Shown here piece by piece: positions 4,056-57,260 of a stretch of 64,000 bases of DNA (its first letter is position 1; each line of letters begins with the position of its first letter). Origin of the DNA: Trypanosoma brucei (Eukaryota). The notes beneath the pieces were generated by a model. That model searched no databases, was not told the origin of the DNA, and saw only the letters and a program-made list of their open reading frames with translations. The stretch is from assembly GCA_000002445.1 (NCBI GenBank), contig CP000067.1, positions 1,504,001 through 1,568,000 of the forward strand. Direction: 5' to 3'. Both the position numbers and the translations under genes were made by a program.

Positions 4056-4150
4056 TATTTTTTAAAAAATTAGCAAATTCTCTCAAAGTAGAAAATTTCA
4101 TATATTTATAAAATTGGGCAAAAATCTTCTACCAATAAATCTTAAAAGTG

Positions 4151-7696: not shown

Positions 7697-7760
7697 TTAG
7701 ACGCACATTCATTATTATTATCATAACTATAATAACCCTAACTTATATCCATAAAATAAA
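7697..7760 (-). repeat. 70-bp-repeat-type element (triplet-rich, weak core)
   Basis: cattattattatcataactataataaccctaac. The position relative to the VSG at 8040 matches the other units. Confidence 0.35.
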
Positions 7761-8039
7761 CAAAATAAACAAAGTAACACAAATTAGAATAACACTTATT
7801 TTAATTATACTTTATCATTATACTGTTTTGCATCTATAGATAACTATCATACTTATTTCACTAACGTTATATATATTTCATATTCTTTAACTGTTCCCTA
7901 ACTTGCACTATTTTTATTAAAATGTATCAGAATATATAAAATTGTGTAAACCATAGAAAATTATTCCAAAATAGCAAAGTTTTATAAATTTTATAAAGTT
8001 TCGTAAAATTGGACAGAAATCCTTAAAATGCTGCTATAC

Positions 8040-9477
8040 TCATAAAGATAAAAATGCCTTAGGAACAAAAACTCTCAAATTGCTATAAAATGATTTTTTA
8101 TCTTTCTCTTCAGTTTCAACTTTCCGAAAGCATCTTTCGCCCTCCGGTTTTTTCTTATCAAAATCACAACCTTTTCATTCTTGCGTTGTTCCTCTGTTGT
8201 CAGCGTTTTTGCATTCGTCTGCTGACTTGGCTGGCTCTTCTTGTTTGTCTGTTTTGGTTGGGCAAGAGGGGCTTGCTTGGTTCTTTGTTGTTACTTCTAA
8301 AAGAGCCTGTAACAACATCTTGGATGCTTCGTCCATTGTCTTCACTTCCTTTATCGTCTGCGTGCGCTTTTCCCCTAACAATGTCGTTGGAAGTTTGATT
8401 TGCGTCAGTTTATCCCAGTACCTGTTTGAGAAGCTGCTATCATCGCCGTACGTACTGGCAATTAACTGCGTAACTGCTTTGGTTTTTTCTCCAAGTGCTG
8501 CTTCTCGTCTGAGTCCGGTCCAAGTTGCTCCAACTGCCACTCTGAAGTCATCGTCTGAGGCGTAGCTACTGATCTTGCCTGCATCGAAGGTCATTGATGT
8601 TTTTTCCCAGCTTGCGGCCACCTCGAGTAGGTCTATGGCTTTTTTTTGAGCAAACTGTTTGAAGTTCCCACTGTATGTCACAGCCTTTCCTGCTAGTCCG
8701 AAGTCGCCACTGCCTTTGGATAGGGTGATTGCTTCTTCTGCTGTTACAGGGCCGTCTATTATGCATGCGTTGTCTCTGCTTGTCGCGACAGTTCCTGTTA
8801 CACCGCTTTTTGCGCAAGCAGCGCTGTTGGTTTTTTCGACTGCCGCTGCCCGGACTGCCGCAGTGTTGTCTGGCGTTATTGTAACCGTGAAAAGTTTTAA
8901 GCTGTCTAATTTTGTCGTCCGGACCCAGCTCTTGAAGTGGTTGGCCTTGGCTTCCAGTGCTTTGTGACAAATTGTTAAGTCGCTAGACGTTTTGCTTTGG
9001 AAGTTAATGTTCGTTTGGTCATTTCTGGAACTGTTCTGGTCGCCTTTTCCCGTGTTAAGGCCTTTGACTTTAATGTCTGAAAGTGCCGCCACTGCACTTT
9101 GGTGACCGCTCAGATTTGCTAGCTTAGTAATTATATTAAATGTTATTTCCAGGAGATCGTTCCGCTTTGTTTGTATTTGATCGAGCCGCTTCGTGAGTAC
9201 AGTCAATATTGGCCGAACATTTTGGAAATCTGATGTCCTGGTGATGTTGCTCATCCTGCTGTTGTTTGTGCGCTCCTCTGCTTTAATCTGCTATCTTGGT
9301 ATCTCCTTTTGACAGCTCCGTTTTGATTTGTTCTGCTATTGCTGTCAGGACATAGGCTGCTTGGCATGGGCTCGTCATGTGTATTTCGGGCTTACTGTCG
9401 CCCGCCATTAATGGTCGAATAACGGTGAGAAATACGCTCGTGCCTATTGCTGCATGGAGAGTCTTGTAGTTTCCCAT
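8040..9477 (-). pseudogene. VSG: VSG pseudogene (frame breaks at N- and C-terminal junctions)
   Basis: Three segments make up this gene. The N-terminal signal-peptide segment is 9283-9477 (MGNYKTLHAAIGTSVFLTVIRPLMA). The main body is 8175-9254 (359 aa). The C-terminal Cys-rich piece KGCDFDKKKPEGERCFRKVETEEKDKK... is in another frame and ends at 8040. Confidence 0.75.
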
Positions 9478-10314
9478 TTCTTGGGGTAGTGCCTTGGGGT
9501 TAGCTTAGTTTTGAAGACGGTCTACCGCTTGGTTGCCGTTTTTAGTATTGAGCTTTGTTCGCTTTTGTATACTTACGCATTTTAGACGGGATAATGGGGG
9601 TCTTGTGATGTGGCATTTATCCGCTTTCTTGTTGAATACAGTAAGCGCCGGGATGCTCGTGCGCTATGAGCTGCTTGCGCAGTGTATCTCATTTTTATGC
9701 TTCATTTTGGCACTTTTATTTTTTTAGAACAGTTTGCAATATTGTCTTAGTCCTTGTTTTCGTTGTCTTCCATCTGATATCTGGGCTTTCGCTCTGTTCT
9801 CTGACGTTTGCGTCATCTCATTATTTAATAAACCACTTCCACTCGTTTGTTTGTCTGCGCCAATATACATCATTTACTTTTGTACATGCCACCAACATAT
9901 ACAAATATCCGACAACGTTGTGCGCCGCCGCAGACTTATAACCACAATAATTGTGGTTTATCGTGAGAGGTTTGTGCGTCTTCCTCTATACACAAGTTTT
10001 TATATCAGTTTCGCAATAGATCTTAGGTACTTTTGTGCAAACAGAGGCGTTACCTGGTTACTTCGCTGCGTATCCCCACTTTTTGGAAAGATCTTGTGCT
10101 ATAGCGGTTTCCAACCATGCTATCAAAATAAAGGTGAGAATTTCTGCTTGTATTGCAACCCTGTTTTGCTTGGGTGCGGCTTCTTCATACTAAAGATTCT
10201 GCTGGTACAATGCATAAATTTCTCTTTATACCACTATTTATATTTAAGTTGATCCCAAACGTGTCTGAAGACATCATTTGTCTTATGTTCCTAGAAGTTC
10301 ATCACTGTTCTTAC

Positions 10315-10395
10315 AATAATAATAAACACACTCACAACACTCTTCTATCATTGCAATTATTATTATCATCATTATTATTATTACTATTAAAACTC
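10315..10395 (-). repeat. 70-bp repeat
   Basis: cacactcacaacactcttctatcattgcaattattattatcatcattattattattactatt is the reverse complement of ...GATAGAAGAGTGTTGTGAGTGTG plus a TAA/TGA triplet run. Confidence 0.7.
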
Positions 10396-10649
10396 TACCA
10401 ATCTAAACAAATAAAACAATTTTGTAAAAATTTATAGTAGTATTAATTTTTTACACCGTATAAATCTGATACTTCACATATTTGGGACATTTTCACACAA
10501 AATTTTTAAACTTTTACAAATTTCCATATTATCTTTAAAAAATTTTAAAATATATTTATAAATCTCATAAAATAGAAAAGTTCATATATTTATAAAATTA
10601 TGCAAAAAATCTTTTACCAATATTTTTTAGAAACTCAATTATATAAGCA

Positions 10650-10800
10650 AAAATACAAGCAAAATTGGGTTTCTATCACAAAAGAATTGATCCCTCTGGC
10701 GTTTGTTTTCCCTCTTGATTCGGTCCATCTACCTGTTTTGGTTTGTAATTCGGATCTTTTACGCACTTTTTATTTTCGGCTTCACTACCCACTCTGCAGC
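10650..10800 (-). pseudogene. VSG: VSG C-terminal fragment (degenerate)
   Basis: The minus-strand translation gives a Cys/Lys-rich segment ending ...GSILL / DQFFCDRNPILLVFLLI, which resembles a decayed SNSFVINKAPLLL GPI signal. No N-terminal domain is present. Confidence 0.35.
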
Positions 10801-11497
10801 CACCTTCGCTGTCATCTCCTGCTCCTTTTTTTTTTGCAAGTTTCGTCTGTTTCTATTATTTTTGGCGGTTTTGCGTTGCCTTTTTGTTGCCGCTTTGTTG
10901 CATGTGCGTGGTAACGCAAAACCTGAGGTGCACGAAAAAAACTTAGCTCCCGCGTAAAAAAAAAAACCGGCGTATCACTAAAAAAATTAAAAACATGCTT
11001 TGAAAAAAATTTAGACTTAAAAAAACATAATTTCGTAAAAGAGAAAACAAATTAATCAAAAAAAATTAGCGAGATTAAAAAACTGAGCACCTGGCAATTG
11101 AGCGGCTTTGGCTGTCGGGTGCCAGTAACAGATTGTGTAACAGCGATTTTGTTACTGATTTTGACAATCGGCTATCCCTTAAATATTATTATTTTTTTCC
11201 TTAATTTCCCTTTGAAAGCAAATCATTGTGATCAGCGAAACTCCACGTTCAAGCGTTTTTTAAAAAATTTTGAAGCCGCGCGCAGCGAGAAATGCAGAGC
11301 TGAAATTCACCAAAGCAAAAAAAAAAGTCGAATTGACACTGCAGAAAAAAAAATATGCAGACGAAGATTCCTGCTTGATAAATAAGGTTAAGATCCCGCG
11401 TAAAAAAAGAGCCGCTGCATCGCTAATAATTTAAAAAACGGTGAATTATAAAAGAATAAAAAAAAGTAAATTAAAAAACAATCCTCAAAATTAAAAA

Positions 11498-11590
11498 CCC
11501 TAACCCTAACCCTAACCAGATAACCCTAACCCTAACCCTAACCCTAACCCTAACCCTAACCCTAACCCTAACCCTAACCCCCCTAACCTA
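11498..11590 (+). repeat. interstitial telomeric hexamer tract (CCCTAA)~15, i.e. TTAGGG on the minus strand
   Basis: The hexamers are essentially perfect tandem ccctaa units with one interruption (accagataa at 11515-11523). The tract lies ~220 bp 3' of the stop of the VSG at 11810-13360. Confidence 0.9.
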
Positions 11591-11730
11591 CCTGCACAAA
11601 AAAAAAACTCCAAAAAAAACGGGAAAAGAGGAAAAAAAAATTTAAAGTTGCCAGAAATTATTTGTTACAGAATCACAAATTTTTACAAACTTACAAAAAC
11701 ACAGTTCAATTTTTTCGGGGAATTTTTTGG

Positions 11731-11746
11731 GTGTTAAAATATATCA
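11731..11746 (-). promoter_or_regulatory. VSG 3' UTR 16-mer (perfect)
   Basis: gtgttaaaatatatca is the reverse complement of TGATATATTTTAACAC. Confidence 0.8.
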
Positions 11747-11809
11747 GAAAGTTTTTCAAATAGCAAGAATTTTTAGCAAAGTTTTTAAAAAAGGGGGGGA
11801 AAAAATTTT

Positions 11810-13360
11810 TTAAAACAGCAAGGCCACAAAAGCAGCAGAAACCATGCTGAGGGCGAATTTCTTGTTTAAGAGAAAACTGGAAGAGCGGCACTTTTCCTTT
11901 TCTGGTTCTGTTTCCCCATCTTTACCCTTTCTCCATCCACAAACAGGACTAGATTTTCCGGTGTTTTCAGCCTCACATTTAGTTTTCTCAGTATGGCTAG
12001 CACAGTTTGGAGTTGTGGCATCTCCTGTTCCTGCTACCTTGTCTTCTGTTCCTGCTTTAGGTTTGCACTTGTTTTCCTTTTCGTCATGGTCGCAGCCAAG
12101 TTTTTTGCATTCTTCTTTTGTTTGGTTGGTCTTCTGTTTGCAGTGGTGTTGTTTTCCGTCTTCGCCGTCTGTTTTCTTGCTTTGTGTTTCGGTTTGTGCT
12201 GCTGCTGGTTTTCCCATCATGTTGTACCGTGTCGCAGAGTATGCGGTTTGTATTGCGTCTGCTAAAATTTTGATGTGTTTGCTTGATGTCTCTGTGTTTT
12301 TCGCTGCGGCTTCTGCTTTGCGCAGTGCCTTGGCTGCTTTTGCAAGGTGGTTTAGCCAAGGGATGTTTAGGCCGCCTGTGATCGCGCTGTGCTTTCCGCT
12401 GTCGCTGGCGTATATCGCGCATGCTTGGCTGTTCGCCCCGGTGCACGTCCCGAGGTTAACTTTGCCTAAGTAATGTATAACGTCATTTCCTGCGCCTTTG
12501 GCGCTGCGCACCCTGCCTACTATGCGTTGTACTAAGGCTTCTAGGTCGCCTGCCGTGTATTCGGCCGGTTTAAGTGTTTTGCATTTGGCCTTTAATTGTG
12601 ATATGACGCTTTGATCGTTGCCTCCGCTCCACTTTATGGCGATGACTGGGTCTGCGCACTGGTCGCTGGTGTCGGCTGATTGTGTGCCGCAGATACACAT
12701 TACGTCGCCGTAGATAGAAAGGCCCGCGTTCTTTGCGCAGCCGTTTGCGTACGTCGCTGCGTGTTTTATTGTCTTTCCGTCCGTGAACTTTGGTTGCGTT
12801 ACGCCGGTCCCGTAGAGCGCTTGTATCAGCTCGTCTTTGGCTTCGTTTGGGTACGTTTCCGTTGCTTCTGTTGTCGCTGTTTCGAGCGCCGCTTGTTGTT
12901 TTAGTAGCTGTCTTAGGGTTGAGTTTATTTTTTCCGCGGCTGCCTGTAATGCTGGCGCTGAGGCGGGCCGGGGGTTTAGGGTCAGCCACTTACTTTGGCC
13001 AGTGCCGCTGTCAACTGTTTCTTTGTCCTCCACCCATTTATCATAGTCTGCTTCCCAGTGAGATTTGAACGGTTCACCTGTTACTTTTTGCTTTTTTGCT
13101 TCCCAGCTGTTTTTGCTCTTGCCGCCTACGAATATTTCTTGCCAGGTTTCGTCGGCGGCTGACATGTTTAGCGCCCTCGCATGCTTTATTGTCGTTTCGG
13201 CGGAGTCTGCCGTTGTGAGTTTGGTTGGCTCTGCGCCGTCTAGGGCTATTGCGGTGCAAAGCAACTGCAAGTCTGCTGCGTTGTCAGCTTGAAACGACGC
13301 TAGTGCCGGTGAAGTCAACGCTAGTGCGATTAGAAATATCTTGGACCACTGTCCTATCAT
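11810..13360 (-). CDS. VSG: variant surface glycoprotein, intact ORF (516 aa), with telomere-type 3' flank
   Basis: The ORF has a signal peptide (MIGQWSKIFLIALALTSPALA) followed by FQADNAADLQLLC... It has a Cys-rich C-terminal domain ending CRSSSFLLNKKFALSMVSAAFVALLF, the 17-mer-type GPI signal. Confidence 0.85.
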   Translation of the reverse strand: MIGQWSKIFLIALALTSPALASFQADNAADLQLLCTAIALDGAEPTKLTTADSAETTIKHARALNMSAADETWQEIFVGGKSKNSWEAKKQKVTGEPFKSHWEADYDKWVEDKETVDSGTGQSKWLTLNPRPASAPALQAAAEKINSTLRQLLKQQAALETATTEATETYPNEAKDELIQALYGTGVTQPKFTDGKTIKHAATYANGCAKNAGLSIYGDVMCICGTQSADTSDQCADPVIAIKWSGGNDQSVISQLKAKCKTLKPAEYTAGDLEALVQRIVGRVRSAKGAGNDVIHYLGKVNLGTCTGANSQACAIYASDSGKHSAITGGLNIPWLNHLAKAAKALRKAEAAAKNTETSSKHIKILADAIQTAYSATRYNMMGKPAAAQTETQSKKTDGEDGKQHHCKQKTNQTKEECKKLGCDHDEKENKCKPKAGTEDKVAGTGDATTPNCASHTEKTKCEAENTGKSSPVCGWRKGKDGETEPEKEKCRSSSFLLNKKFALSMVSAAFVALLF

Positions 13361-14555: not shown

Positions 14556-14700
14556 CATTATTATTAAAATATTCGTATACACACACTCACAACACACTCC
14601 TATTATTATTATCATTATCATTATTATTACTGCTTACATTATAATAGTCGTATACATACACTCACAACATGTTCCCCTACTACTATCTTTATTATAACCA
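14556..14700 (-). repeat. two tandem 70-bp repeats
   Basis: Two copies of tatacacacactcacaacacactcctattattattatcattatcattattattac ... tatacatacactcacaacatgttcc. Confidence 0.7.
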
Positions 14701-16372: not shown

Positions 16373-16980
16373 CTATAATAGCATCCCCTTTTTGTGCTGT
16401 TTTCCTGGTGCTGTTGAATCGTGGCCTTTTTTGCTTCCTAGTACACTATTTTTTTTTTAATTACGTGACTAGATGGTAATCAGCTGCTATAAATAAATTA
16501 AGTGACAGGTTTCGATGGGAAGTTGGACGGCGATGCTGATGGCTGATGCTTTGTTTGCACATTGTTGCCATACTGTCGTTGCAGTCACGTTTTTCTCGTT
16601 TGCTTCCGGCGAGTCAGCTTCTGTCAACAGCTTTGTTGGCGCCACTATAACTCCAGTAACAACCACGGTGACTGGATCATCTGCGTTTGTCTTGTTTCTT
16701 ATATTGAAAATACACTACAGTCGGTGAAATTCAAACGTAGCCTGGCATTAATCAAGGTTAGAATTCACTATCGAGTTAAAACCTACAGTCAGCATTATCT
16801 CCTTTTGCATAATTGTGGTAATAATCTAATTTGTTTTTAGATATCCGTATATTCTACCTTCATTTTCTTTCTCCGTTACCTTTAATAGTGCTCATCATGT
16901 TCTCCCCACTCACTCCCTCGATGTCATTGCACCCTTGAAGTTCGATGAAGTGTTTCGACTGTATCTTTCCATTTTTGACC

Positions 16981-17095
16981 ACTATTATTATAATACTAGT
17001 ATATATACACTCACAGCACTCTTCTATTATTATCATTATCATCATTATTATTATTAATAATAATAATAATTATTATTATTATTTATAACATACAT
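16981..17095 (-). repeat. 70-bp repeat with extended TAA/TTA triplet run
   Basis: tatatacactcacagcactcttctattattatcattatcatcattattattattaataataataataattattattattatt. Confidence 0.7.
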
Positions 17096-17319
17096 GAAAA
17101 GCAAAAAAATTATAAGAGAACTCACTTTTTACAGCGTTTCACCATCCTACTTTACACCCACATACCACTATGATACACATATTATTGAAAAATTTTTAAT
17201 TTTTTCTAATTTGCATATTTTCATCAAAAAGTGTTAATATATATTACAATTTTAGATAATTTTTCTCAAATTATCATATTTCACTATTTCTTGAAATTGA
17301 GCAGAAATTTTTAGAAAAT

Positions 17320-18795
17320 TTAATTAAAAAGCAAAAATGCAAGCCAAAGAGGCGAATCTTTGATGACAAAAGAATTTCTTCCTGTGGTGTTCGTTTTACC
17401 ATCTTTATTTGTTTCTTTGCTTTCTGCCGCTTTTACCGCTTCCTTCTTGCCTTCCTTACTCAAGGTGCACTTTTTGTCCCTGTCGCCGTCTTTGTTGAAA
17501 ACACATCCCTGGTCCTTTAGCTTTTCACACCCATCTTGTTTGTCCTTGCCTTTGGTATTGCATTCTTTTTCCTTCTCTTCTGCTGATTTTGTAGCCGTCT
17601 TGGCTTCTGCCTCTCGAGGTTTTTTCGCGGTGTCAGCCAGTTTCTGCTTGTTCAAGTCCGAGTAGTAAAAGTACAAGCGCACCAGCTCGCTTATGTCGGT
17701 TATTTGGCCTAGGCTTTTGGCATCTGTGTTGTCTGTTAGTATGCCTGCGATAGGCATATTGTTTACGTTGGTTGATATTAATTTGTTGATGCTCTCGTCA
17801 CTACCAAAAGCTTTCTTGACCTTTGCTGCCAATGTGGTATCGCTGTCATCGGCTGTTTCCTTTTTACCAAGAATGTGTCTGCGAGCTGCCTTTTTGAAAT
17901 CTGTTGAGGCTAAGGCAGTATCTGCTGTCGTGAGGTCCGCTGCTTTAGGCGTTTGCTTGCTCCGCTTTGCGGCTGTTGCTGCTGCTTTTAGGTAGGGGTG
18001 TTCGTCGTCCCCCATCACGTTCGCCAGGGCTATTGTTCTAATGCCGTTGGCTGCGTCTAGGCTTATTATCCCTGCGGCCATTTTGGGCTTGTTCCCCGAT
18101 GTGTCGACGCTGGTACCGTCGTTGTTCAGTTTAAAACCGCTTGCGGCCGAATTGATGTTGCATTTTCTGTCTCCGCTTGTGAACTTGTTGTGCGCTATGG
18201 CATTTGCAAATTTTCCGCCTAGTCCCGTTTTCGTTATGGCTGTCACTGTGCCGTCGTACGTGGTTACTGTTTCCCAGCTGAGCTGACAGTTTGGGTTTGC
18301 TTCTACGACCGCGCTGAACCCTGCTAATGCGTTGCTTCCAGACTCGTTATCGCCGATGCAGCCGTTTGCTGAGGTTGATCCGTCTGCTTGTACAGACATG
18401 AATTCGTGCGTTGCTCCGTGCAACCTGCCGGCGTCTCGGGCTGTTGTTACGTCTGTTGCTACACTTGTTGATGAGTAGTATTCTAGGTTTTCTGCTGTTT
18501 GGCCGGCTAGGAAAGCTGCTGCTTTTCCCTGCACTTTCGTCGCTGCACTGGTTGAGTTGCCTTCGATGTAGATTAAGGTGCGTAAGAGTGCTTTTATGTC
18601 AGCCGCCACTTGCAATCCAGGCGCTCGAATATTCGTTAGCGCCAATCCTGCTAGGTTGCCTGCGTCAGCGGTTACTTTGCATATTGCTTGCCAGTTTGCT
18701 TTCTTGATGACGTTTCCCGCTGTCGCTTCGCCTGGTCGTGGTGATGTTACTGAAGCGATTAGAAGCGGCAGGGCTAACCCTAACTTTGGTGGCAT
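17320..18795 (-). CDS. VSG: variant surface glycoprotein, intact ORF (491 aa)
   Basis: The ORF has a signal peptide (MPPKLGLALPLLIASVTSPRPGEA). Its C-terminal domain (KEKECNTKGKDKQDGCEKLKDQGCVFNKDGDRDKKCTLSKEGKKEA) ends TNTTGRNSFVIKDSPLWLAFLLFN. Confidence 0.85.
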   Translation of the reverse strand: MPPKLGLALPLLIASVTSPRPGEATAGNVIKKANWQAICKVTADAGNLAGLALTNIRAPGLQVAADIKALLRTLIYIEGNSTSAATKVQGKAAAFLAGQTAENLEYYSSTSVATDVTTARDAGRLHGATHEFMSVQADGSTSANGCIGDNESGSNALAGFSAVVEANPNCQLSWETVTTYDGTVTAITKTGLGGKFANAIAHNKFTSGDRKCNINSAASGFKLNNDGTSVDTSGNKPKMAAGIISLDAANGIRTIALANVMGDDEHPYLKAAATAAKRSKQTPKAADLTTADTALASTDFKKAARRHILGKKETADDSDTTLAAKVKKAFGSDESINKLISTNVNNMPIAGILTDNTDAKSLGQITDISELVRLYFYYSDLNKQKLADTAKKPREAEAKTATKSAEEKEKECNTKGKDKQDGCEKLKDQGCVFNKDGDRDKKCTLSKEGKKEAVKAAESKETNKDGKTNTTGRNSFVIKDSPLWLAFLLFN

Positions 18796-33334: not shown

Positions 33335-35999
33335 GTTATTATACTTTGCTTGTTTGGGCTTTGGTTAAGTATGAAAAGTGTTAGGCGGTTCGGTTTTAGC
33401 TGTTATGAGACGGTATTTCACTCCTTTGTTATGTGGTATTGCTTTCGTTTGCCGGCGCTTTGTACAGTCTGTCTCTGGGCGACGCATGGGCCGTTTTTAT
33501 TAAAAAGGATTCGTAAATGTCTGGAGATTAAGTCTGGTGGCTGTCAGTGCTTTGGTATCCAGTGAATTCCATCGCTTCTTTCTTTTTCCGAAGCAAAAGC
33601 AAAGTGATACCTTGTATTCTGCATAATGATCTGTATTTACGGTTATTCCATTATTTTGTCATGTTTTATAGTCTTTGGTGTTGTTACATCCTTCACCATA
33701 TTGTCAATTCACCACTAGTTTGGGAATGACAATTTTCGAATCACCTCGACGGTTTACTTGCAGGCTTATCTGGTTTCCGTCTGAATGCCTTTTTTTCTGG
33801 AACGTTCTGTTTTTCTGGCGTCTTTCGATGTTTATTAGCTCTGTAAACGTCTTAAGTCGAATACTTCGACAAACATATCTCATTTTAGTTATTTTTTCTC
33901 GCTTTAGTTCTCTTCCTGACTGCTTTTATAAACTCTGTTTTTGCGGTTTATATTTTATGTTATTTTATTTGAGTGCGGAATATTATGAGTACCTTTGTAA
34001 GTTTCTTCTCGGATATGAGTGGTTTGAAAAACTCGGGTTGTTATTGCAGTGAATTTATTTTTATAATGATAATATATCTTTCTTTTATGCTACTTTAACA
34101 CATTTTGTTCTGCATCTGCTGTATTTAGGTTTCTCTGTGACTGTTTTAGCACAGGTGTGCTTATAGCACGAAAGAACATATTTTTGTATCGGATAATTCG
34201 AATCTTATGCTTTCTATTACGCTTTAATTTCCTTCGTTAGTTTGTACTTATAATTAAAAAAGAGCACTACCTGTCTGGCTCTCTCAACTGTGTGCTTGCG
34301 CCTATTTTTTACTATGATTGGTTTTAGTATGCTTGCGTTTAAGAGTCGGCCATTTGTGGCCAGACCTCATATTTTTGTGGCCTGCTTGTTTACGGTGTCG
34401 TTCCAGTGGCTGAGGATCGGTCTTTATTCCAATGTAAGTCAGTTAGTGCTTCACGAGTTTCAGCGGACTATTCGTGATCCAATAGGGAATCAGAGGTGTA
34501 CCATTGCAAATTCTCTCCACTTTTAAAAGTCCAGCTAAATTGTTAGACCTGTGCAGCCTTTTTGAGCAGTTTCAGCGTTTTTTTGTTTTTTGTGCCTACA
34601 GTAATCTAGCAGGAGTCCAAGCTTTGAAAATTTTCTGTCAAAAGTATTATATTGTTGCCCACAAGTGTTGGACATTATCACTATGTCCAGTGAGAAGAAA
34701 TTAGATATGACATCACAGTTACACAATCCACTCCTCATGCTTTTGCTTCTTTGTATTTTTCTTCAAATCCAAACATTTGTATATGCCATCAGATTAAAAA
34801 AATAGTTTCCATTATAACCATATATGCAGTAGAACATATGCAGTTTTGAGTAAAATACTGGGCATTATTTCGAGTTTACACTGTGATCATCCGTCGAAAC
34901 TTACAATGATACGCAAATAAAGTGCATACATTTGAAGATAGCTCGGCTTCACATTCTATACGTCGAATGCCTCGCTTTGTACAGCGACATTCATAGCACC
35001 AAAAAAAAGTTGGTGTTGTTCTTTTTCAAATGATTCCTTCTATTTTAGACTTAAGTGCTTGCATTCCGTCACTTGTACCATTTCTTTTTAATGTTAATCT
35101 ATTTCTTAGTACTTTTCTTCTATTTTATAGATGCTGAGAGCTGTAAGGGAGATGAAATACCTTTTAAAAATGACGTTTCAAGTTCATTTGGTGCCTGCTA
35201 CGCCGGATGAAATAGTAGTCTCGCAAGCCGCCGCATCTCTGATCTACTATATATGCGATTTGGGGTCAATTTTCTGCTTTGTGTAGTTGAATATAGGAAA
35301 AGACAAAACCCTCGATACCATCTAATAACATCACCAACTTACTACAGCACAAGAGTTACCAAGGCTAAACTTTCCAACAATATGTTATGATGCAATAACA
35401 CTTTATTTTTGTTTCCCTTCTCTTTTATTGTGGTTTCTTTTGCTTGCTGTTATTTTTTAAAAATTGGTGCTTGTTTGACAACACTCCACACGTTACACCC
35501 GCATCATCAACAACTTACATTGTCAGTGCTTTCGATGTTTACTTGTCTCAAGAGGAAGAAGAACTTTTAGACAAAATTTTCGGACGTTACCAGTTGAATA
35601 CACTTCATTACATTGTGGTGTGCAAATAATAGAACATAGAAAAGAAAAATCAAATTGGTAAAACAGTTATTGAGAGCATATCAGTGGCTTTTATTTTACG
35701 TAACTTCTACTTGCGCTGCTTATTTATATTATTTGTGGAAAATCATTTACTCTTTATATTGGACTCTGTCTGATTCTTACTCTCCACTTCATCATCTCCT
35801 TGTGTATAGTGATACCATCATCATTTGTTTGAAATTGCGCATTTTTAATATCCACTCCTTTATTTGTTTTGCTCATTCCGTTTAATAATAATTCTCTTTC
35901 CCTCTCCCACAAAGTGTTGCCTTCACCATCGCACCCCCTGAGGTTGCACCATTGCAATTTTTTAAGAGATATTTTGACGAAATTCGTTCAGCACTACAA

Positions 36000-36070
36000 C
36001 TATTACTATATTATTAGTATATACACACACAAAACGCTTATCTATCATTATTATTGAAACGTTAATTATT
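36000..36070 (-). repeat. 70-bp-repeat-type element
   Basis: tattagtatatacacacacaaaacgcttatctatcattattattgaaacg. Confidence 0.5.
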
Positions 36071-36405
36071 GTCAATAAAATAAAAGGACAGTTAAAATTA
36101 AAATACCGCCTATTTCAAATACCAGATCACTACACTGCTTTAGACTTGTATGAAATTATTATGCATATTTTACTAAATTTTATGTTTTTCAAAAATTTAC
36201 CAATTTTCAAATTTTCATGCAAAAGTATTAAAATATACCAAATTTATAATATTTTGGCAAATTCTGTAAAGAAAGTAAATTTTATGAACTACATAAAATT
36301 GATCTAAAATCATTAAAATAATAAATCCCTACAGAACTAATATAAGAAAAAATTCGAGAAAAATTTTCTATTTGAGAGAATACTACCATTTCGGTATTTC
36401 TTCTT

Positions 36406-36609
36406 TTATGTAACATATTCACCGTGTTTACCCTTTCCAAATGCACAATTCTGTTTGTCATCTACTTTTTCATTTTCCCAACTCGTTTTATCACTATGTT
36501 GCTTACAGTTAGAGTGTGTTGCCCCCTCTGGTTGCTCTTCTGCTCCTGCTGCTGTATTTTCTGCTCCTGGTTTATGTTTGCATTCCCCCTTTCCATCTTT
36601 TTCTTCCAA
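36406..36609 (-). pseudogene. VSG: VSG C-terminal domain fragment
   Basis: The 67-aa Cys-rich ORF (ECKHKPGAENTAAGAEEQPEGATHSNCKQHSDKTSWENEKVDDKQNC) is typical of a VSG C-terminal domain. No N-domain is attached, and a 16-mer-like element lies at 36224-36240. Confidence 0.5.
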
Positions 36610-37072
36610 TTTTCAACCTTTGTTTGTGCAGATCGTGTTTGTTTTGTTGTTATTTCAGCCTGTTGTAGGAAGTTCTGCTGAATCTTCCCGTGTGTTCGTT
36701 GAAGAGAAGCCCCATAAGAAGCGCCGATCTGAAATTCACAAAAGCAGAATTACGGCGCCGTGTGACGATACGGGGCTGAAAACAAATATGAGAAAAATTT
36801 AAGTGAAGATGGACGGCTGTTTAATAAGGGACAGGATGTGCAGAAAAAACGTTGTGTTGCTAAAAAATTTTTTTAAAATATTGTAAAAAACAATAAAAAA
36901 AATTAAAAAGATATCAAAAATTTTAAATAGTTAAAAAACTAAGCACCACTGCAGAACTGGGGTCAAATAAGGGTTAGGTTCCGCATAAAAAAAGAGCTCG
37001 TGCATCAGTTAAAAAAAATCTATAGTCGTGACGTTTCACAACTGGTAAAAAAAAACTTATTAGTAAGAGGAG

Positions 37073-37097
37073 AAATAACCCTAACCTTAACCCGCTC
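37073..37097 (+). repeat. degenerate telomeric hexamers (aaccctaaccttaaccc)
   Basis: A short, decayed CCCTAA tract sits at the position homologous to the perfect tract at 11498-11590. A second remnant, gataaccctaaaaatcctaaaaaa, is at 37291-37314. Confidence 0.55.
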
Positions 37098-37408
37098 AAG
37101 AATTAGTTTATTTTTTATTTGAGCGTAACTTTTGCCCTCTGCGGCGACATTCTCAAAAAACGAAAAAAACGAAGGTAAATAATTTTTAAAAATGCGCGAG
37201 ATTTTATAAAATCCGCCAAAAGACACAAAAAATGGAAAATCGATCTAAAAAATTGAAAAAATTTAACCTTCAAGCATTTTTTCTAAAGAGATAACCCTAA
37301 AAATCCTAAAAAAATTCAACAGGAAAAGAAAAAAATTTTTGGTCGCCAGAAAATATTTTTTTTCAGAATCAGATTTTTTACAAACACACACTTTTTTGGT
37401 GAAATTAG

Positions 37409-37424
37409 GTGTTAAAATATATCA
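37409..37424 (-). promoter_or_regulatory. VSG 3' UTR 16-mer (perfect)
   Basis: gtgttaaaatatatca. Confidence 0.8.
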
Positions 37425-37468
37425 AATAGCAAAATTTTAGCAAAGGAAAAATTTTAAAGGGGAAGAGA

Positions 37469-39310
37469 TTAAAACAGCAAGGCCACAAATGCAGCAGAAA
37501 CCACGCTGAGGGCGAAGTGTTTGTTTACTAGAATAGAAGAATCTTTGCATTTGTCCTCAATCCAACCACAAACTTTTGCCTTTCCTGTTGGAGGAGTGCC
37601 TGGCACTACCTCGCATGTCTCCTTAGTTGTATGGCTAGAGCAATTTACTCCAGGTTTGGCTCCCTCTGTTGGCTTTTCTGCCCCTTTTACCGCTTCCTTC
37701 TTGCCTTCCTCACTCAAGGTGCACTTTTTTCCCTCGTCGCCTTTTGGGTTGAAAACGCAGCCCTGGGGTTTTAGCTTATCACACTCATCTTGTTTGTCCT
37801 CGCCTTTGGTATTGCATTCTTTTTCCGCTTCCTGTTGTTTTAGTTTACTTGTGCTTATCTGCTTGGCCGCTGCTTTCGTTGCGCCTGTTGTGGCTTCCTT
37901 TGGGAGTGTCGTTATGTGTAGAGCCGCTGCCAATGTCTCGTTGAGAGCTTCTATCATTGCCTCGGCTGTGGCTTGTTCTTGTGCTCTTTGTTCGTAATGA
38001 TCTGCTGCTGTTGCAGCCTTTTCGAGTTCGCCGATCCACGCTGGCAAAGCTATCGTGTTTGCTGCGGATGTGAATGTAGCGCAGGCCGTGGCACCTGCCG
38101 CGTGGTTTCCATCGCAATTGCCGGCTGCGCTGCCGCTTGCTGGGTTGCCTATATAACCTATGTTTCCGTTGGTGCCTTTTGGTTCATATATGAGCGCAGT
38201 TAGGGCCCTTGTTAGCTCCTTCAGCGTTTCCGCCGTCGCTGATTTTACTGTGGGTGCTTCGGTCCTGCATTTTGTTTTGATTGCCTCCCAGTCGGCTATG
38301 TCTGTACCCGTGTTCCAGGCTGCCTGCGTCTCTGTGGCCGTTGTATAGCACCCTGTGTTGCTGCCGGCGCTCCCGGAGCCTGAGCTGCAGAGACAAGCTA
38401 TGGTCGCAGCTACTGAAATTGTTGCCGACGCTCCCGCCGAGTTGGCAGTCCCACAGTGTTGCTGGCGGTCGTTGCCTGCGCCGAGGAGTTTTGGGACCCT
38501 GTCTGTGCCCGCGCCTCCGTACGCTGCCTTTTTCAGGGCTGTGGTTATTTTCTCTTTATCTGCAGTGTCTCCGCCATCACGTGCGAGCTTATTTGCTGCC
38601 GCCAGCAATTTCTCCACAGTCTTATTCACGTTTCGGCGGAGGCTACCTTTGTCGCTGGCTAAGCTTCTGAGTGCCGTCTGCGTTTCTTCTGGCAGGGTTT
38701 CTAGGTAGGCGGCGGCATCTATACATTGGAGTCGAGCGCTGCCGCGGCACTTTTAGTCGAGTTCCCCTTCCGCCGGCTTGGTTTGCCGCTCTGCCTTTGC
38801 GGTATCTGCAAGCTGCTGAATTGCTGGGTAATGAACTAGTATTAAATTTATGTGGCCTGCGATCTTTGCCGCTTCCTTGGCGCCCTGCCCTGGTTGCGGC
38901 AGGTCTTTGACATTATCTGAAGAAACAACTGCTCTGCACAGCAAGCCGAACTCTCTCCTGTTTATGCCCTTGTCTGGCCCGTTGGCAGAGCCACGGTTTG
39001 TTGACAGCTGCAAGAGGGCTGCTACCTCTACGGCTAAAGCAAGCATTGTTCTGGCTACATCTCCTGGCGTCATTTTGCCGTGTGGCGTTGTTGTCGTGGA
39101 TGGCCTAAGGCTGCTGCTTGTGTGCTGTTGCTGTGCTTCTCGGTAGTGGCTCCCCTTTGATTCTTTGAGGTTGTGAAGTTTGTGTAATTCCGCCTTCAGT
39201 TTTGTGGCTATCGCTCTGCAGATTACCTTTGCCGTCCTTGTTGCTTGTGCCGTGTCCCTGTCTTCTTTTGTTGTCCTTAGCTTTCCTTCTCCAACAGGTG
39301 TCAGTGGCAA
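37469..39310 (-). pseudogene. VSG: VSG pseudogene (long 3' ORF intact, N-terminal region frame-broken, no signal peptide)
   Basis: ORF 37469-38629 (386 aa) ends CKDSSILVNKHFALSVVSAAFVALLF. Its C-terminal domain ECNTKGEDKQDECDKLKPQGCVFNPKGDEGKKCTLSEEGKKEA is near-identical in type to that of VSG 17320-18795. The upstream ORF 38753-39310 is in another frame and lacks a hydrophobic leader. Confidence 0.75.
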
Positions 39311-40789
39311 ACTCTGTGTATTCGAATCCTGTACTGCTATTTCCTTTTACTGGAGTTAAGAAAAACCAATTCAGGCATATACAATATGATATTTTATTCA
39401 CATTTTCTTAGGTGAGTTTTTAAAATCTAGTATTTATGAACATCCTGACACCATTTTTAAATAAAAAAAATGTGTTTTCGACTTGCAAAGAAAGCCAAAT
39501 GATATTTTAGGTAAATGATTTTGCATAAATGAAGAAAAGTGACTCACACATTAGGAAATGTAAATTATCACTATAATTCGCTGTATTTGGCATGTATTTT
39601 AACTTGTAAAAAGGTTGGCTTCACCATAGAAATCCATGCAAAATATGACATAAATTTTGTTTTCGACAGATTTCCACACTCATTTGAAGTTTATAGGATA
39701 CTATATCTATCACCCGCATATCTTCCAAGGTCTGATTCTGTGATTCTTTAAAATATCACACATATTTTGTGTTTGAAAAATCATGTTGTATGGATTCTAA
39801 TCTGTTATATCTACTACTAACTGCTTTGAGGTACATCCAGCTCTAGCAAAACTGTGAGGTCTGTGCTTAGATCGTATTCGCGGGTTGGTTGGGATTTCTG
39901 CAGGACCTGCTTGCTTTTATGTTGTTCCAGCTTAAGGTTTGATAGCTTAGGACTTATTTTCGACTCCTTTGGCTTCTAGCACATCTTTTTCGCTTACTAT
40001 AAATGAATATGCCCTTGTTTATACTATTAAGCACTCCATCGACGAAAGTCGTTAATGGTTTGCTGCCATACCAGTATAAAATTGGTTAGGTTTAGCTGGA
40101 AATTATGTTTAATTCACAAAACTCTGTAAATGATATATATATATATATGTTATCAGAAGTAGTTTCTGCGTTTTAATTTTTTTATCTTTGTGGAAATCTA
40201 TTAGTAGTGGTAGTTTTCAAACCATTCTTAATAATATTATATTGATTCACACGATTATTAGTCATTATTTATATATCTGATAATAAGACTTCAGCATTAC
40301 ATTACACATATACAAAACCTTTATCCTCACCCATATTCGGTTCATTTAAATATCTGTTTATTAAAATCTGGCATAAGAATACCTATTACAGTTATAACTA
40401 CCTTTTCTGTAGGAGTACGCATTCATTTTTTAATAAAATATGGGTATCATCAGCTTATTACCTTTCTTATAATTCTGATGTATTATGTTTTTCACTTTTA
40501 GGTCGCTCACTGATAATAGCGTGGAGAATACACTTTTCCTCCACACTCAATTCTGTTATTTCCTCAATATCCCCTACGTCATCTGTGGCTGTTCGATATT
40601 GGAAATAGTAATGCACGTTTTTAAAACTGCATATATTCCATCTATTATTTCACTTTGACTTCCTATCGATACGCGTTTCCTCTAAAGTAATATTCTTTGT
40701 CTTCTTCCACTTACTCACTTGCTCTCATCCTACCCCTATAATCGCTTTTAGTTCCACTATTTTAGCTGCAGATTGAGTTTCACCACCAC

Positions 40790-40890
40790 TCTTATTATAA
40801 TATTTGTATATAAACTCTCACAACACTCTCCTATCATTATATATTATTACTATTACTATTTCCATTATCATCATTAGCATTACTGTAATC
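40790..40890 (-). repeat. 70-bp repeat
   Basis: tatataaactctcacaacactctcctatcattatatattattactattactatttccattatcatcattagcattactg. Confidence 0.65.
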
Positions 40891-45372: not shown

Positions 45373-46010
45373 TTAAGTAAAAATCTCTAAAATGACACTA
45401 AACTCACAAAAAGCAGCAGCCATCAGTGAAATTTTGTTATTTAAGAAAAAACTAGTATCTTTGCAAGTTTTGCCCTCCAACGTACAATCCGTGGCTTTGC
45501 GGTCATCTTTGTTGGTATATTTGGAGCACTTGGAGTCAGTTTTCCCATCTTTCCCTGTTTCTTGGTTTGCTGCTGCCTTTTCAGCGGCTTCTTTTGTCAA
45601 GGTGCACTGCTTCCCTTTGTCGTTTTTATCGACAAAATGGCATCCTTCCGTTTCGATGCATTTGGTTTTGTTTTTTCCTACGTCGTTAAAAATTTGCTTT
45701 GGTGTTGTCGCTGCTCCTTTGCTAATTTGCTTTTCTAATTCTGCAAATTTCCCTTTTAAAGCTTTGGTATTGAGGTCCTGGTAGTATGCCAGTGTTGCCG
45801 TTAGGTCCTTCAGTGTTGAAAGTGGTGTCAATGGAACTTTTTCCGTTCCTTTGGCATTGAAGTTGTGGACTTGTGCTGTGCCGAAAGCAGTGTTGTACTC
45901 TTTCCATTGTTGCTTTCAGCCCAAAGGCTGTCTTAATTTCTTTTTTTAGCGGCTATTCTTCAGGTTGCGCTATTGTATCTTTGTTTTTAACTAGCATGGC
46001 GTAGACTGTC
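45373..46010 (-). pseudogene. VSG: VSG 3' fragment truncated by ingi insertion
   Basis: ORF 45373-45831 is a C-terminal domain (CIETEGCHFVDKNDKGKQCTLTKEAAEKAAANQETGKDGKTDSKCSKYTNKDDRKATDCTLEGKTCKDTSFFLNNKISLMAAAFCEF). N-domain-like sequence continues, with stops, up to the ingi 5' end. The 16-mer-like gtgttaaaatatgttg at 45314-45329 is downstream. Confidence 0.6.
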
Positions 46011-46262
46011 TTGAAGTCAGGATCCCTGGCGATGCTGGCCACATCAACGTGGTGCCAGGGTCCAGTACCCCGTATCATCGGGGCAAGCCAAGAGCCAGCA
46101 GCGTTCTTCTCATGGGGAACACTGCTGTGCTCCGGCTACGGCATCATACAGCACAGGGATCAGCAGCGTCTTGCTGGGACACCGTTCTTCATTTGTCGGT
46201 CCCTGGGCACGTGCCAGCGTGCCATCAGCAGTATCATCCGCACTAAGATGCTGCTGTCCGGT

Positions 46263-46286
46263 GATGTGGAAGAGAATCCCGGCCCG
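46263..46286 (+). other. 2A-like self-cleaving (ribosome-skipping) peptide motif DVEENPGP in the ingi ORF
   Basis: gat gtg gaa gag aat ccc ggc ccg encodes D(V/I)ExNPGP at residues 85-92 of the ORF, upstream of the endonuclease domain. Confidence 0.8.
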
Positions 46287-57174: not shown

Positions 57175-57260
57175 TATAACATTCGTATACACACACTCCC
57201 ACAACATTCTCCTGTGAATATTATTACCATTATTATTATTACTACTTTTATTATAATACG
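57175..57260 (-). repeat. 70-bp repeat
   Basis: tatacacacactcccacaacattctcctgtgaatattattaccattattattattactacttttattataatac. Confidence 0.65.

What the first reader, a model, noticed from the sequence alone, without database searches (positions are those of the whole stretch)
10930..11810. About 0.9 kb telomere-type VSG 3' flank block duplicated beside a second VSG (36800-37470), including sequence on both sides of the hexamer tract
Several sequence strings are shared between the two loci in the same order. Examples are agatcccgcgtaaaaaaagagccgctgcatcgct (11390-11425) against ggttccgcataaaaaaagagctcgtgcatcagt (36975-37008). A second is gttgccagaaattatttgttacagaatcacaaatttttacaaac (11648-11690) against ggtcgccagaaaatattttttttcagaatcagattttttacaaac (37340-37385). 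A third is cagcaaggccacaaaagcagcagaaaccatgctgagggcgaa against cagcaaggccacaaatgcagcagaaaccacgctgagggcgaa. Both loci have a perfect 16-mer. In block B the hexamer tract has decayed to aaccctaaccttaaccc (37073-37097). Both blocks are followed, on the VSG strand, by a VSG C-terminal fragment and then a 70-bp repeat. The shared unit spans both sides of the telomeric tract, so the interstitial telomere was present before the duplication. These are paralogous copies of one ancestral telomere-derived cassette.
Basis: seen in the sequence. Interest (0 to 1): 0.55.

Follow-up and report, generated by a model that had tools for sequence, protein, structure and literature searches.

The report
Telomere-type flanks behind two array VSGs
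Two silent trypanosome coat-protein (VSG) genes inside a gene array are each followed by a short telomere-repeat tract plus conserved neighbouring sequence, a recurrent module of the kind reported next to chromosome-end VSG genes, so this is a real but modest extension of known biology and not a one-off local duplication.

Summary
The window is a Trypanosoma brucei TREU927 VSG array, with the VSGs on the minus strand.

A-B homology is collinear on both sides of the hexamers, but it is weak and shorter than 0.9 kb. It covers the GPI signal, the 3'UTR, the hexamers, a ~70-nt spacer, a ~37-nt motif (M) and a 31-nt island. Beyond that island A and B do not align.

Two T. equiperdum contigs with unrelated VSGs carry the same module. 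A resembles one of them (73% over 502 columns, E=1e-72) and B resembles the other (E=4e-50), each more closely than A resembles B. A profile of M built only from T. equiperdum copies finds just the A and B flanks in the 64 kb. The hexamer-to-distal junction is shared by all four loci.

So the tract is an integral part of a dispersed, old 3'-flank family. It resembles the T2AG3-like tract reported downstream of VSG221 in an expression site, where it seeds new telomeres. A and B are internal members of this family, probably placed separately. I rate it a new member of a known kind, of moderate interest.

The parts
14561..14631 (-). 70-bp repeat upstream of VSG-A (5' boundary of cassette A)
   Evidence: Matches other 70-bp repeat copies in the window at 76-82% (86-156, 16978-17052, 40780-40870, 57160-57257).
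11810..13360 (-). VSG-A, an intact 516-aa B-type VSG with C-terminal domain and GPI signal
   Evidence: Pfam VSG_B E=1.9e-67 and Trypan_glycop_C E=8.8e-23. 100% identical to an NCBI 'VSG, putative, T. brucei brucei TREU927' protein on a 1,590,432-bp contig.
11596..11809 (-). VSG-A 3'UTR. It holds the perfect 16-mer (11731-11746) and the pre-tract motif TTTTTGGAGTTTTT (11603-11616).
   Evidence: 61% global identity to the B UTR (z=10.5) and 73% to L002 (z=15.6).
11496..11595 (-). T2AG3 tract with the G-strand on the VSG sense strand. Order: degenerate GCAGGTAGGTTAGGGGGG, then (TTAGGG)9, then TTATCTGG, then (TTAGGG)3.
   Evidence: TTAGGG units lie 223-311 nt after the stop codon. It is the only tandem hexamer tract in the 64 kb.
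11384..11495 (-). T-rich spacer (~75 nt) plus motif M1 (core 11384-11421, GATGCAGCGGCTCTTTTTTTACGCGGGATCTTAACCTT)
   Evidence: A profile built only from T. equiperdum M copies hits here at E=8e-8.
11290..11320 (-). Island I (TTTTGCTTTGGTGAATTTCAGCTCTGCATTT). This is the last element collinear with B.
   Evidence: 27/33 identity to B 36717-36749. One mismatch to L001 4612-4642.
11075..11105 (-). Element Q, shared with L001 but with no collinear counterpart in B
   Evidence: It lies inside the A 11470-11073 vs L001 4452-4863 alignment (62% over 420 columns, E=9e-28).
10932..11003 (-). Second copy of motif M (M2), an internal repeat about 445 bp from M1
   Evidence: A 11380-11472 vs 10935-11032 at 67%. 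nhmmer E=7.6e-12 with the full profile and E=0.27 with the T. equiperdum-only profile.
10300..10900 (-). Remnant of a resident array cassette: a decayed C-terminal coding fragment, a GPI-signal remnant, a degenerate 3'UTR and a 70-bp repeat (~10310-10390)
   Evidence: 10303-10720 aligns to 16980-17409 (3' end, UTR and 70-bp repeat of the VSG at 17320; E=2e-16). 10560-10706 aligns to 4076-4225. Translation; 70-bp repeat. The 10720-10900 part is only weakly VSG-like.
40780..40870 (-). 70-bp repeat upstream of VSG-B (5' boundary of cassette B)
37469..39310 (-). VSG-B, a disrupted B-type VSG (ORFs 37469-38629 and 38753-39310) with an intact C-terminal domain and GPI signal
   Evidence: Pfam VSG_B E=1e-26 and Trypan_glycop_C E=8.9e-25; ORF list. 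29% protein identity to VSG-A.
37315..37468 (-). VSG-B 3'UTR with the perfect 16-mer (37409-37424)
37293..37314 (-). Decayed proximal hexamer zone (TTTTTTTAGGATTTTTAGGGTT, running into ATCT). It abuts the UTR as the main tract does in A.
   Evidence: The TTAGGGTTATCT junction is shared with A at 11516-11527.
37077..37097 (-).
   Evidence: It aligns with (TTAGGG)3 of L001 and the distal three units of A.
36957..37076 (-). T-rich spacer (~67 nt) plus motif M (core 36970-37006)
   Evidence: The T. equiperdum-only profile hits here at E=1.9e-8.
36719..36749 (-). Island I, the end of the module in B
   Evidence: The L001 module query aligns to 37095-36720 at E=2e-21.
35995..36700 (-). Remnant of a resident array cassette: a VSG C-terminal fragment (about 36316-36640), a degenerate 3'UTR with a 16-mer carrying 2 mismatches (36225-36240), and a 70-bp repeat (~36000-36060)
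   Evidence: tblastn E=3e-14. 36639-35952 is collinear with the ordinary VSG 3' end of L003 (E=3e-22).

Best explanation
A and B are two diverged, probably separately placed members of a conserved 'telomere-type' VSG 3'-flank module.

In VSG-sense order the module is: end of the C-terminal domain and GPI signal; 3'UTR with the 16-mer; a T2AG3-like tract with the G-strand running away from the gene, degenerate near the gene and regular further out; a ~70-nt T-rich spacer; then one or more T-rich units carrying the motif M (consensus TGATGCAGCGGCTCTTTTTTTATGCGGACCCTAACCCTTATT).

The hexamers are an inherited, integral part of this module. They are not scars made locally.

In both window loci the VSG plus module sits in front of the truncated 3' end of an ordinary array cassette. 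This fits a recombination event that pasted a VSG and a variable length of its telomere-type flank into a resident cassette. The N-terminal part of the VSG has a separate history, because similarity between module relatives starts only about 100-150 nt before the stop codon.

Shown: the family, its collinearity on both sides of the tract, the shared tract-to-distal junction, the internal location, and the two subtypes.

Inferred: a telomeric origin, separate arrival of A and B, and that the copies are mostly passive relics. By analogy with the VSG221 expression site, they could still seed a new telomere or supply 3' homology.
For: - Module found in independent loci. T. equiperdum L001 and L002 carry VSGs only 27-30% identical to VSG-A, yet both show 16-mer, TTAGGG-like repeats, spacer and M in that order.
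- Pairwise relations: A-L002 73% over 502 columns, E=1e-72, running from the C-terminal coding end through the tract into the first M copy. B-L001 61.6% over 854 columns, E=4e-50. A 11470-11073 vs L001 4452-4863, E=9e-28. The post-hexamer A-B match is only E=2e-8.
- The four-way alignment shows distal hexamers, spacer and M in register.
- Independent validation. An M profile built from T. equiperdum copies alone finds only B (E=1.9e-8) and A (E=8.2e-8) in the 64 kb. Whole-module queries from L001 and L002 hit only A and B.
- With the full profile, all 8 M copies lie in the four hexamer-bearing flanks. None lies elsewhere in the window or in control locus L003.
- Control VSG 3' flanks carry essentially no TTAGGG (0-1 units).
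- Against a simple A-B duplication: VSG-A and VSG-B are 29% identical. There is no wider segmental duplication. The resident remnants are unrelated (z about 1). The module ends differently, after island I in B and after Q and M2 in A.
- The downstream remnants are ordinary array 3' ends.
- Literature. A T2AG3-like tract (46 bp of T1-2AG1-6 plus 10.5 degenerate repeats, 106 bp, nt 211-322 of AJ271641) lies downstream of VSG221 in its expression site, and all mapped healing events fell within it (PMC1807955). [quoted passage not shown]
- In A the TTAGGG units lie 223-311 nt after the stop codon, and a degenerate-to-regular gradient is seen.
Against: - Only four module copies could be retrieved: two in the window and two in T. 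equiperdum. The TREU927 genome itself could not be scanned.
- I could not read AJ271641 or Aline & Stuart 1989. So it is not shown that the M units lie distal to the T2AG3-like tract at real chromosome ends.
- None of the retrieved copies is demonstrably telomere-adjacent. L001 is internal, being followed by a C-terminal remnant and a 70-bp repeat. L002 is undetermined.
- An ancient duplication followed by long divergence, deletions and gene conversion of the VSG and of the resident remnants could give the same picture.
- The direction of transfer, telomere to array or array to telomere, is not established.
Confidence: 0.6

Rival explanations
1. One reading: A and B are direct paralogues made by duplicating one ancestral array cassette that already held an interstitial telomere. 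All differences arose by later decay.
For: The two loci have a parallel architecture: VSG, UTR, hexamers, M, island I, C-terminal remnant, 70-bp repeat. They share collinear homology on both sides of the tract. They lie in the same orientation, 25.6 kb apart, in one array.
Against: Each is closer to a T. equiperdum locus than to the other. They belong to different subtypes: 8 bp versus about 195 bp between the two hexamer zones, with A grouping with L002 and B with L001. The VSGs are 29% identical. No flanking cassette is shared. The resident remnants and module endpoints differ.
Confidence: 0.15
2. The module is native to arrays and has no telomeric history. It would be a conserved 3' homology block, including a T2AG3-like microsatellite. 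Expression-site copies would then be derived from array donors during gene conversion, not the reverse.
For: Three of the four retrieved copies are demonstrably internal, followed by a C-terminal remnant and a 70-bp repeat. Duplicative transposition is known to run from array to expression site.
Against: Only 2 of about 14 cassettes in this window and 2 of 3 T. equiperdum loci carry it. The repeat unit is exactly the telomerase product, with the G-strand pointing away from the gene and degenerate units nearest the gene. Published use of TTAGGG-like repeats as a mark of telomere-proximal VSGs suggests they are enriched at chromosome ends.
Confidence: 0.2
3. Each tract was added locally by telomerase during repair of a double-strand break, as with the short interstitial telomeric sequences described in primates and rodents. 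The surrounding similarity would then be generic A/T-rich sequence.
For: Insertion of interstitial telomeric sequence at break repair is documented in mammals (PMC7215372 abstract). Trypanosomes can seed telomeres on T2AG3-like DNA.
Against: The sequence on both sides of the tract, and the junction itself, are homologous in four loci. Independent insertions would not share junctions. No 'empty-site' paralogue with contiguous flanks was found.
Confidence: 0.03
4. Assembly artefact: a telomeric clone or read was wrongly joined into the array at A.
For: Subtelomeric arrays are difficult to assemble, and A has an unusually pure (TTAGGG)9 run.
Against: The sequence distal to the tract in A is homologous to the sequence distal to the tracts in B, L001 and L002, which come from an independent assembly of another strain.
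Confidence: 0.02

Closest known systems
T2AG3-like tract downstream of VSG221 in the Lister 427 VSG221 expression site (Glover et al. 2007, PMC1807955; accession AJ271641)
   Same: Both are a ~100-bp tract just 3' of a VSG. Both have degenerate T1-2AG1-6 units followed by more regular repeats. Neither is the terminal telomere, since non-telomeric DNA lies beyond. A's tract is ~100 bp, with TTAGGG units 223-311 nt after the stop codon. The published tract is 106 bp at nt 211-322. The published tract seeds de novo telomeres after telomere deletion.
   Different: The published tract is in a telomeric expression site. A and B have at least 11 kb and 37 kb of further VSG cassettes beyond them in the VSG-sense direction. 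The sequence of AJ271641 could not be compared here, so homology is not demonstrated, in particular the presence of M units. Seeding by A or B is untested.
Conserved sequence organisation with 'TTAGGG-like' repeats 3' of telomere-proximal VSGs (Aline & Stuart 1989, as cited by Hall, Wang & Barry 2013, PMC3708902)
   Same: TTAGGG-like repeats lie a few hundred bp downstream of the VSG and form part of a conserved flank.
   Different: That description is for telomeric genes, and Hall et al. used the repeats as evidence of a telomere-proximal location. Here the same kind of flank lies inside an array. The 1989 paper could not be read, so a detailed comparison is from memory only.
VSG gene-conversion cassette (70-bp repeats upstream, conserved 3' end with the 16-mer downstream)
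   Same: Both loci have an upstream 70-bp repeat, a VSG, and a 3'UTR with a perfect 16-mer.
   Different: Ordinary cassettes in this window run from the 3'UTR almost straight into the next 70-bp repeat. One example is the VSG at 17320, where the gap is about 240 bp. A and B carry an extra 0.5-0.9 kb module plus a truncated resident 3' end.
Interstitial telomeric sequences: break-repair insertions in mammals (PMC7215372) and yeast tracts that stop break-induced replication and create ectopic telomeres (PMC7736798)
   Same: Short internal runs of the telomere repeat. The yeast work offers a possible mode of action, namely termination of break-induced replication with telomere formation.
   Different: Here the tract is inherited as part of a larger conserved module. 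It is not inserted at an otherwise contiguous site. There is no head-to-head array as in fusion-type tracts, only a 10-bp CCCTAACCCT inside M.

Membership tests
Telomere-type VSG 3' flank (T2AG3-like tract module known at telomeric VSGs) | The tract lies within a few hundred bp 3' of the VSG stop codon, after the 3'UTR 16-mer | tested here: met
   A: 16-mer 64 nt and TTAGGG units 223-311 nt after the stop codon. B: units at 168 and 384 nt.
Telomere-type VSG 3' flank (T2AG3-like tract module known at telomeric VSGs) | The G-rich strand (TTAGGG) is on the VSG sense strand, running away from the gene | tested here: met
   CCCTAA is on the + strand and the VSGs are on the - strand. The orientation is the same in L001 and L002.
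Telomere-type VSG 3' flank (T2AG3-like tract module known at telomeric VSGs) | Degenerate T1-2AG1-6 units nearest the gene, followed by more regular repeats | tested here: met
   A: GCAGGTAGGTTAGGGGGG then (TTAGGG)9. L002: about 95 bp of degenerate units, then 5 perfect units. B is decayed throughout.
Telomere-type VSG 3' flank (T2AG3-like tract module known at telomeric VSGs) | The VSG is adjacent to a chromosome end | tested here: not met
   Further VSG cassettes follow in the sense direction: VSGs at 8175, 4151 and ~500 beyond A, and at least six cassettes beyond B. A and B are therefore internal copies of the module, not telomere-proximal genes.
Telomere-type VSG 3' flank (T2AG3-like tract module known at telomeric VSGs) | Sequence homology to published telomeric flanks (AJ271641; the Aline & Stuart sequences) | not testable with these tools
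   No trypanosome nucleotide collection is available. The 1989 paper and several others are not held.
Break-repair interstitial telomeric sequence (telomerase insertion at a double-strand break) | The flanks are contiguous in copies that lack the tract, and the junctions are unique to each insertion | tested here: not met
   The junction to distal sequence is shared by four loci. Loci without hexamers lack the whole module.
Telomere-telomere fusion relic | Head-to-head (TTAGGG)n(CCCTAA)n arrays | tested here: not met
   Only one orientation occurs in tandem. CCCTAA on the sense strand is limited to the 10-bp CCCTAACCCT inside M.
Recent segmental duplication within the array | High identity extending through the gene and neighbouring cassettes | tested here: not met
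   VSG proteins are 29% identical. 3'UTR identity is 61%. The distal block scores z=0.3. There are no shared neighbours.
VSG conversion cassette | Upstream 70-bp repeat and a 3'UTR 16-mer | tested here: met
   70-bp repeats at 14561-14631 and 40780-40870. Perfect 16-mers at 11731 and 37409.

The most novel reading that the evidence does not exclude
The internal T2AG3 tracts could work as latent telomeres, making a few array VSGs behave like telomere-adjacent donors. Break-induced replication that starts in the upstream 70-bp repeat would copy the VSG and then stop at the tract, with telomerase extending it. Alternatively, a break distal to the tract would be healed there. Either route would turn VSG-A directly into an expression-competent, telomere-proximal gene. 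The same modules would also be footprints of traffic from telomeres back into the silent archive. Three published pieces make this plausible: seeding at the VSG221 tract (PMC1807955), activation of only telomere-adjacent VSGs by break-induced replication (PMC12137147), and yeast interstitial tracts that abort break-induced replication and form ectopic telomeres (PMC7736798). None of it was tested at internal tracts.
Probability: 0.15. Interest if true: 0.7.

Novelty: new member of a known kind. Interest (0 to 1): 0.4.

Why it matters
- It shows that TTAGGG-like repeats downstream of a VSG are not a reliable sign that the gene is telomere-proximal, although they have been used that way.
- It defines a conserved non-hexamer marker, motif M. 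With it, every copy of this flank could be found in long-read assemblies.
- If internal copies nest among telomeric ones, they would be direct sequence evidence that VSGs move from chromosome ends back into the silent archive. How the archive is replenished with intact genes is an open question.
- VSG-A, which has the purest tract, is intact. VSG-B, which has a decayed tract, is a pseudogene.
- The tracts are also candidate fragile sites or telomere seeds inside subtelomeres.

Tried and rejected
1. Island I as a decayed GPI-signal coding remnant. The translations look suggestive (FALVNFSSAF...), but an nhmmer profile of nine VSG 3' ends gave no hit in any of the four blocks (best E=0.59). Left as unsupported.
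2. Known RNA families in either block: none at E<=1.
3. A third telomere-type flank near the CCCTAA cluster at 7736-8373: only isolated hexamers next to a 70-bp-type repeat.
4. A larger segmental duplication around A and B: none.
5. Retrieving the TREU927 loci or other TREU927 VSG contexts by exact protein look-up: not on record. A short C-terminal query found no candidates. A profile query added only one further contig, L003, a negative control.
6. A metagenome scan for motif M: no match.
7. Literature on interstitial telomere tracts inside T. brucei arrays: nothing found in the searchable library. Marcello & Barry 2007, De Lange 1983 and Aline & Stuart 1989 are not held.
8. Ideas considered but not tested: that M derives from reverse-transcribed telomerase RNA, or from an inverted copy of the degenerate proximal repeats. 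The repetition of M in units about 135-475 bp apart argues against a single telomerase event.
Full report
**Context**

The window is a subtelomeric VSG array of Trypanosoma brucei. Ten long ORFs were scanned against Pfam. Six carry VSG domains (VSG_B or Trypan_glycop, two of them also Trypan_glycop_C) and two belong to an ingi-like retroelement. The 516-aa ORF at 11810-13360 (VSG-A) is 100% identical to a 'VSG, putative' of T. brucei brucei TREU927 on a 1,590,432-bp contig. All VSG-like segments lie on the minus strand, so 'downstream' of a VSG means towards lower coordinates.

**Checking the observation**

- The perfect 16-mer occurs only twice in the 64 kb, at 11731 and 37409.
- The only tandem hexamer tract is at 11496-11580/95. 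Tandem Repeats Finder gives 13.8 copies, and there are exact runs of 3 and 9 units.
- B has aaccctaaccttaaccc at 37077-37093.
- In the VSG-sense direction both loci are followed by a VSG C-terminal remnant and a 70-bp repeat.
 - B's fragment is clear: tblastn E=3e-14, and 36639-35952 is collinear with an ordinary VSG 3' end (E=3e-22).
 - A's is weaker, but 10303-10720 aligns to the 3' end, UTR and 70-bp repeat of the VSG at 17320 (E=2e-16).
 - The 70-bp repeats are visible.

**How much of A and B really aligns**

Sensitive BLASTN gives a collinear chain:
- 11604-11898 vs 37299-37557 (68%, E=8e-34): GPI signal and 3'UTR.
- 11380-11512 vs 36965-37093 (63%, E=5e-8): post-hexamer segment and hexamers.
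- 10304-10666 vs 35999-36365: resident UTR and 70-bp repeat.

Against dinucleotide shuffles, the sequence beyond the hexamers has a significant local match (z=5.1). Its core is 40/51 identities. A second island, 11288-11320 vs 36717-36749, is 27/33.

By compartment, using global alignment:

| Compartment | A-B identity | z vs shuffles |
|---|---|---|
| GPI signal | 61/72 | 13.1 |
| 3'UTR | 61% | 10.5 |
| Tract end to end of motif | 61% | 4.9 |
| Rest of distal block | not above shuffles | 0.3 |
| Resident C-terminal remnants | not above shuffles | 1.1 |

So homology on both sides of the tract is real and ordered. It covers about 0.6 kb of A, not 0.9 kb, and it is old. A 10930-11288 has no partner in B. 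That stretch contains an internal second copy of the post-hexamer motif. B also has a second, decayed hexamer remnant at 37293-37314, directly after its UTR.

**Further copies elsewhere**

TREU927 is not in the contig index, but T. equiperdum OVI is. Two contigs were retrieved through distant VSG homologues, 27-30% identical to VSG-A.

- L001 shows: 16-mer; scattered TTAGGG-like units; (TTAGGG)3; about 74 nt of spacer; the same motif; a second motif copy; the same island; a C-terminal remnant with a GPI-signal trace; a UTR; and a 70-bp repeat at the contig end.
- L002 shows: 16-mer; TTTTTGGAGTTTTT; about 95 bp of degenerate units; 5 perfect units; then three motif copies in T-rich units.

Pairwise results:
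- A vs L002: 73% over 502 columns, E=1e-72, from the end of the coding region through the tract into the first motif.
- B vs L001: 61.6% over 854 columns, E=4e-50.
- A 11470-11073 vs L001 4452-4863: E=9e-28.

Each window locus is therefore closer to a T. equiperdum locus than to the other window locus. A four-way alignment puts the distal hexamers, the T-rich spacer and the motif in register.

**Motif M as a marker**

Eight copies define M, with consensus TGATGCAGCGGCTCTTTTTTTATGCGGACCCTAACCCTTATT. With the full profile, every hit lies in one of the four hexamer-bearing flanks. There is none elsewhere in the window or in L003.

As a test independent of the window, a profile built only from the five T. 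equiperdum copies was run against the 64 kb. It found B (E=1.9e-8) and A (E=8.2e-8) and nothing else significant. Whole-module queries from L001 and L002 hit only A and B.

Control flanks carry 0-1 TTAGGG units and no M. The controls were four other VSGs in the window and L003, which has the same C-terminal class.

**Structure of the family**

There are two subtypes.
- In A and L002 the UTR runs through TTTTTGGAGTTTTT into degenerate units and a long tract. An interruption of about 8-10 bp follows (TTATCTGG in A), and then a short distal zone.
- In B and L001 a decayed proximal zone is separated by about 100-200 bp (≈195 bp in B, ≈100 bp in L001) from a short distal zone.

The distal zone, spacer and M are common to all four. 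Similarity between relatives rises only about 100-150 nt before the stop codon. The N-terminal domain of the VSG therefore has a separate history from the 3' module. This fits known recombination boundaries in the VSG 3' end (established knowledge of VSG gene conversion).

The module ends at different points: after island I in B, after element Q in L001, and after Q plus a second M in A. In each case it then abuts a different resident VSG 3' remnant. There is no wider duplication around A and B, and VSG-A and VSG-B are 29% identical.

**What it is**

The hexamer tract is an inherited component of a conserved 3'-flank module, because the junctions on both sides are shared by four loci. This excludes independent telomerase insertions and an assembly chimera.

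The nearest published description is from Glover et al. 2007. [quoted passage not shown] Non-telomeric DNA lies distal to it. All mapped chromosome-healing events after telomere deletion occurred within it (PMC1807955).

Hall et al. 2013 cite Aline & Stuart 1989 for 'TTAGGG-like' repeats 3' of telomere-proximal VSGs, and they use them as a sign of telomere proximity (PMC3708902).

A's tract matches that description in size, position, polarity and degenerate-to-regular gradient. What differs is location. A and B have at least 11 kb and 37 kb of further cassettes beyond them.

I could not compare sequences with AJ271641 or read the 1989 paper. Membership of that family therefore rests on architecture, not on demonstrated homology.

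**Most likely history and mechanism**

The following is inference. A VSG together with a variable length of its telomere-type flank was pasted into an ordinary array cassette. The copy started in or near the upstream 70-bp repeat (14561-14631; 40780-40870). It ended by a non-homologous or microhomology join inside the resident gene's 3' region, leaving that gene's C-terminal remnant, UTR and 70-bp repeat.

Different endpoints, different subtypes and unrelated remnants favour separate events for A and B. An ancient duplication followed by heavy remodelling cannot be excluded with four copies. The direction of transfer, telomere to array or the reverse, is likewise unproven.

The pure (TTAGGG)9 run in A is hard to reconcile with roughly 27% divergence from its nearest relative in the flanks. 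That suggests renewal by slippage or conversion, or a recent arrival. It parallels gene state: VSG-A is intact, while VSG-B is disrupted and has decayed hexamers.

**Possible function**

This was not tested. By analogy with the VSG221 tract, an internal tract could seed a new telomere after a distal break.

Recent work reports that, without a homologous template, a break in the active VSG is repaired by break-induced replication that activates only telomere-adjacent VSGs (PMC12137147). In yeast, interstitial telomere sequences disrupt break-induced replication and drive ectopic telomere formation (PMC7736798, title and abstract).

Together these suggest that tract-bearing internal VSGs might act as pseudo-telomeric donors. 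I rate this at about 0.15.

**Novelty and verdict**

No paper describing telomere-repeat tracts inside T. brucei arrays was found in the searchable library. Several key older papers are not held.

The finding is best classed as new, internal members of a known kind of element, together with a usable marker motif. 'Two paralogous copies of one cassette' is too narrow. Interest is moderate.

Noticed in passing
window 17421-17572 and 37675-37826: A 153-bp patch in the C-terminal coding region of the A-type VSG at 17320 is 89.5% identical to VSG-B. This is far above the 55-70% seen elsewhere between VSG 3' regions in this window. It looks like a segmental gene-conversion tract between C-terminal domains of otherwise unrelated VSGs.
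   Followed up: no
window 46011-50709 (+), with 45400-45657 (-): An ingi-like retroelement lies on the opposite strand to the VSGs, with ORFs carrying reverse transcriptase (E=1e-22) and RNase H (E=3e-8). It sits directly next to an isolated VSG C-terminal fragment, so it appears to have interrupted a cassette.
   Followed up: no
window 11516-11527 and 37289-37300: The same TTAGGGTTATCT interruption occurs inside A's tract and at the end of B's decayed proximal zone. This suggests the two-zone structure of the tract is ancestral. A/L002 may have lost the intervening 100-200 bp, or B/L001 may have gained it.
   Followed up: partly
L002 4627-4666: The T. equiperdum contig ends in a 40-nt poly-C run directly after a copy of motif M, whose 3' end is C-rich (CCCTAACCCTCCTCCCCC). 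This is probably an assembly breakpoint at a homopolymer or repeat.
   Followed up: no
window 8175-9254 and 60788-62227 (-): Two long ORFs in VSG cassette positions gave no Pfam hit at E<=0.01. The one at 60788 has a VSG-like C-terminus by tblastn and a GPI-signal-like tail. The one at 8175 matched nothing but itself.
   Followed up: no
whole window: There is strong strand asymmetry: on the + strand T is 35.6% and A 23.6%. This fits all VSG cassettes lying on the minus strand with A-rich sense strands.
   Followed up: no
window 36225-36240 and 10542-10558: The resident remnants downstream of both modules keep their own degenerate 16-mers, with 2 mismatches in B and 4 in A. Each locus therefore carries two successive VSG 3' ends in tandem.
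   Followed up: partly
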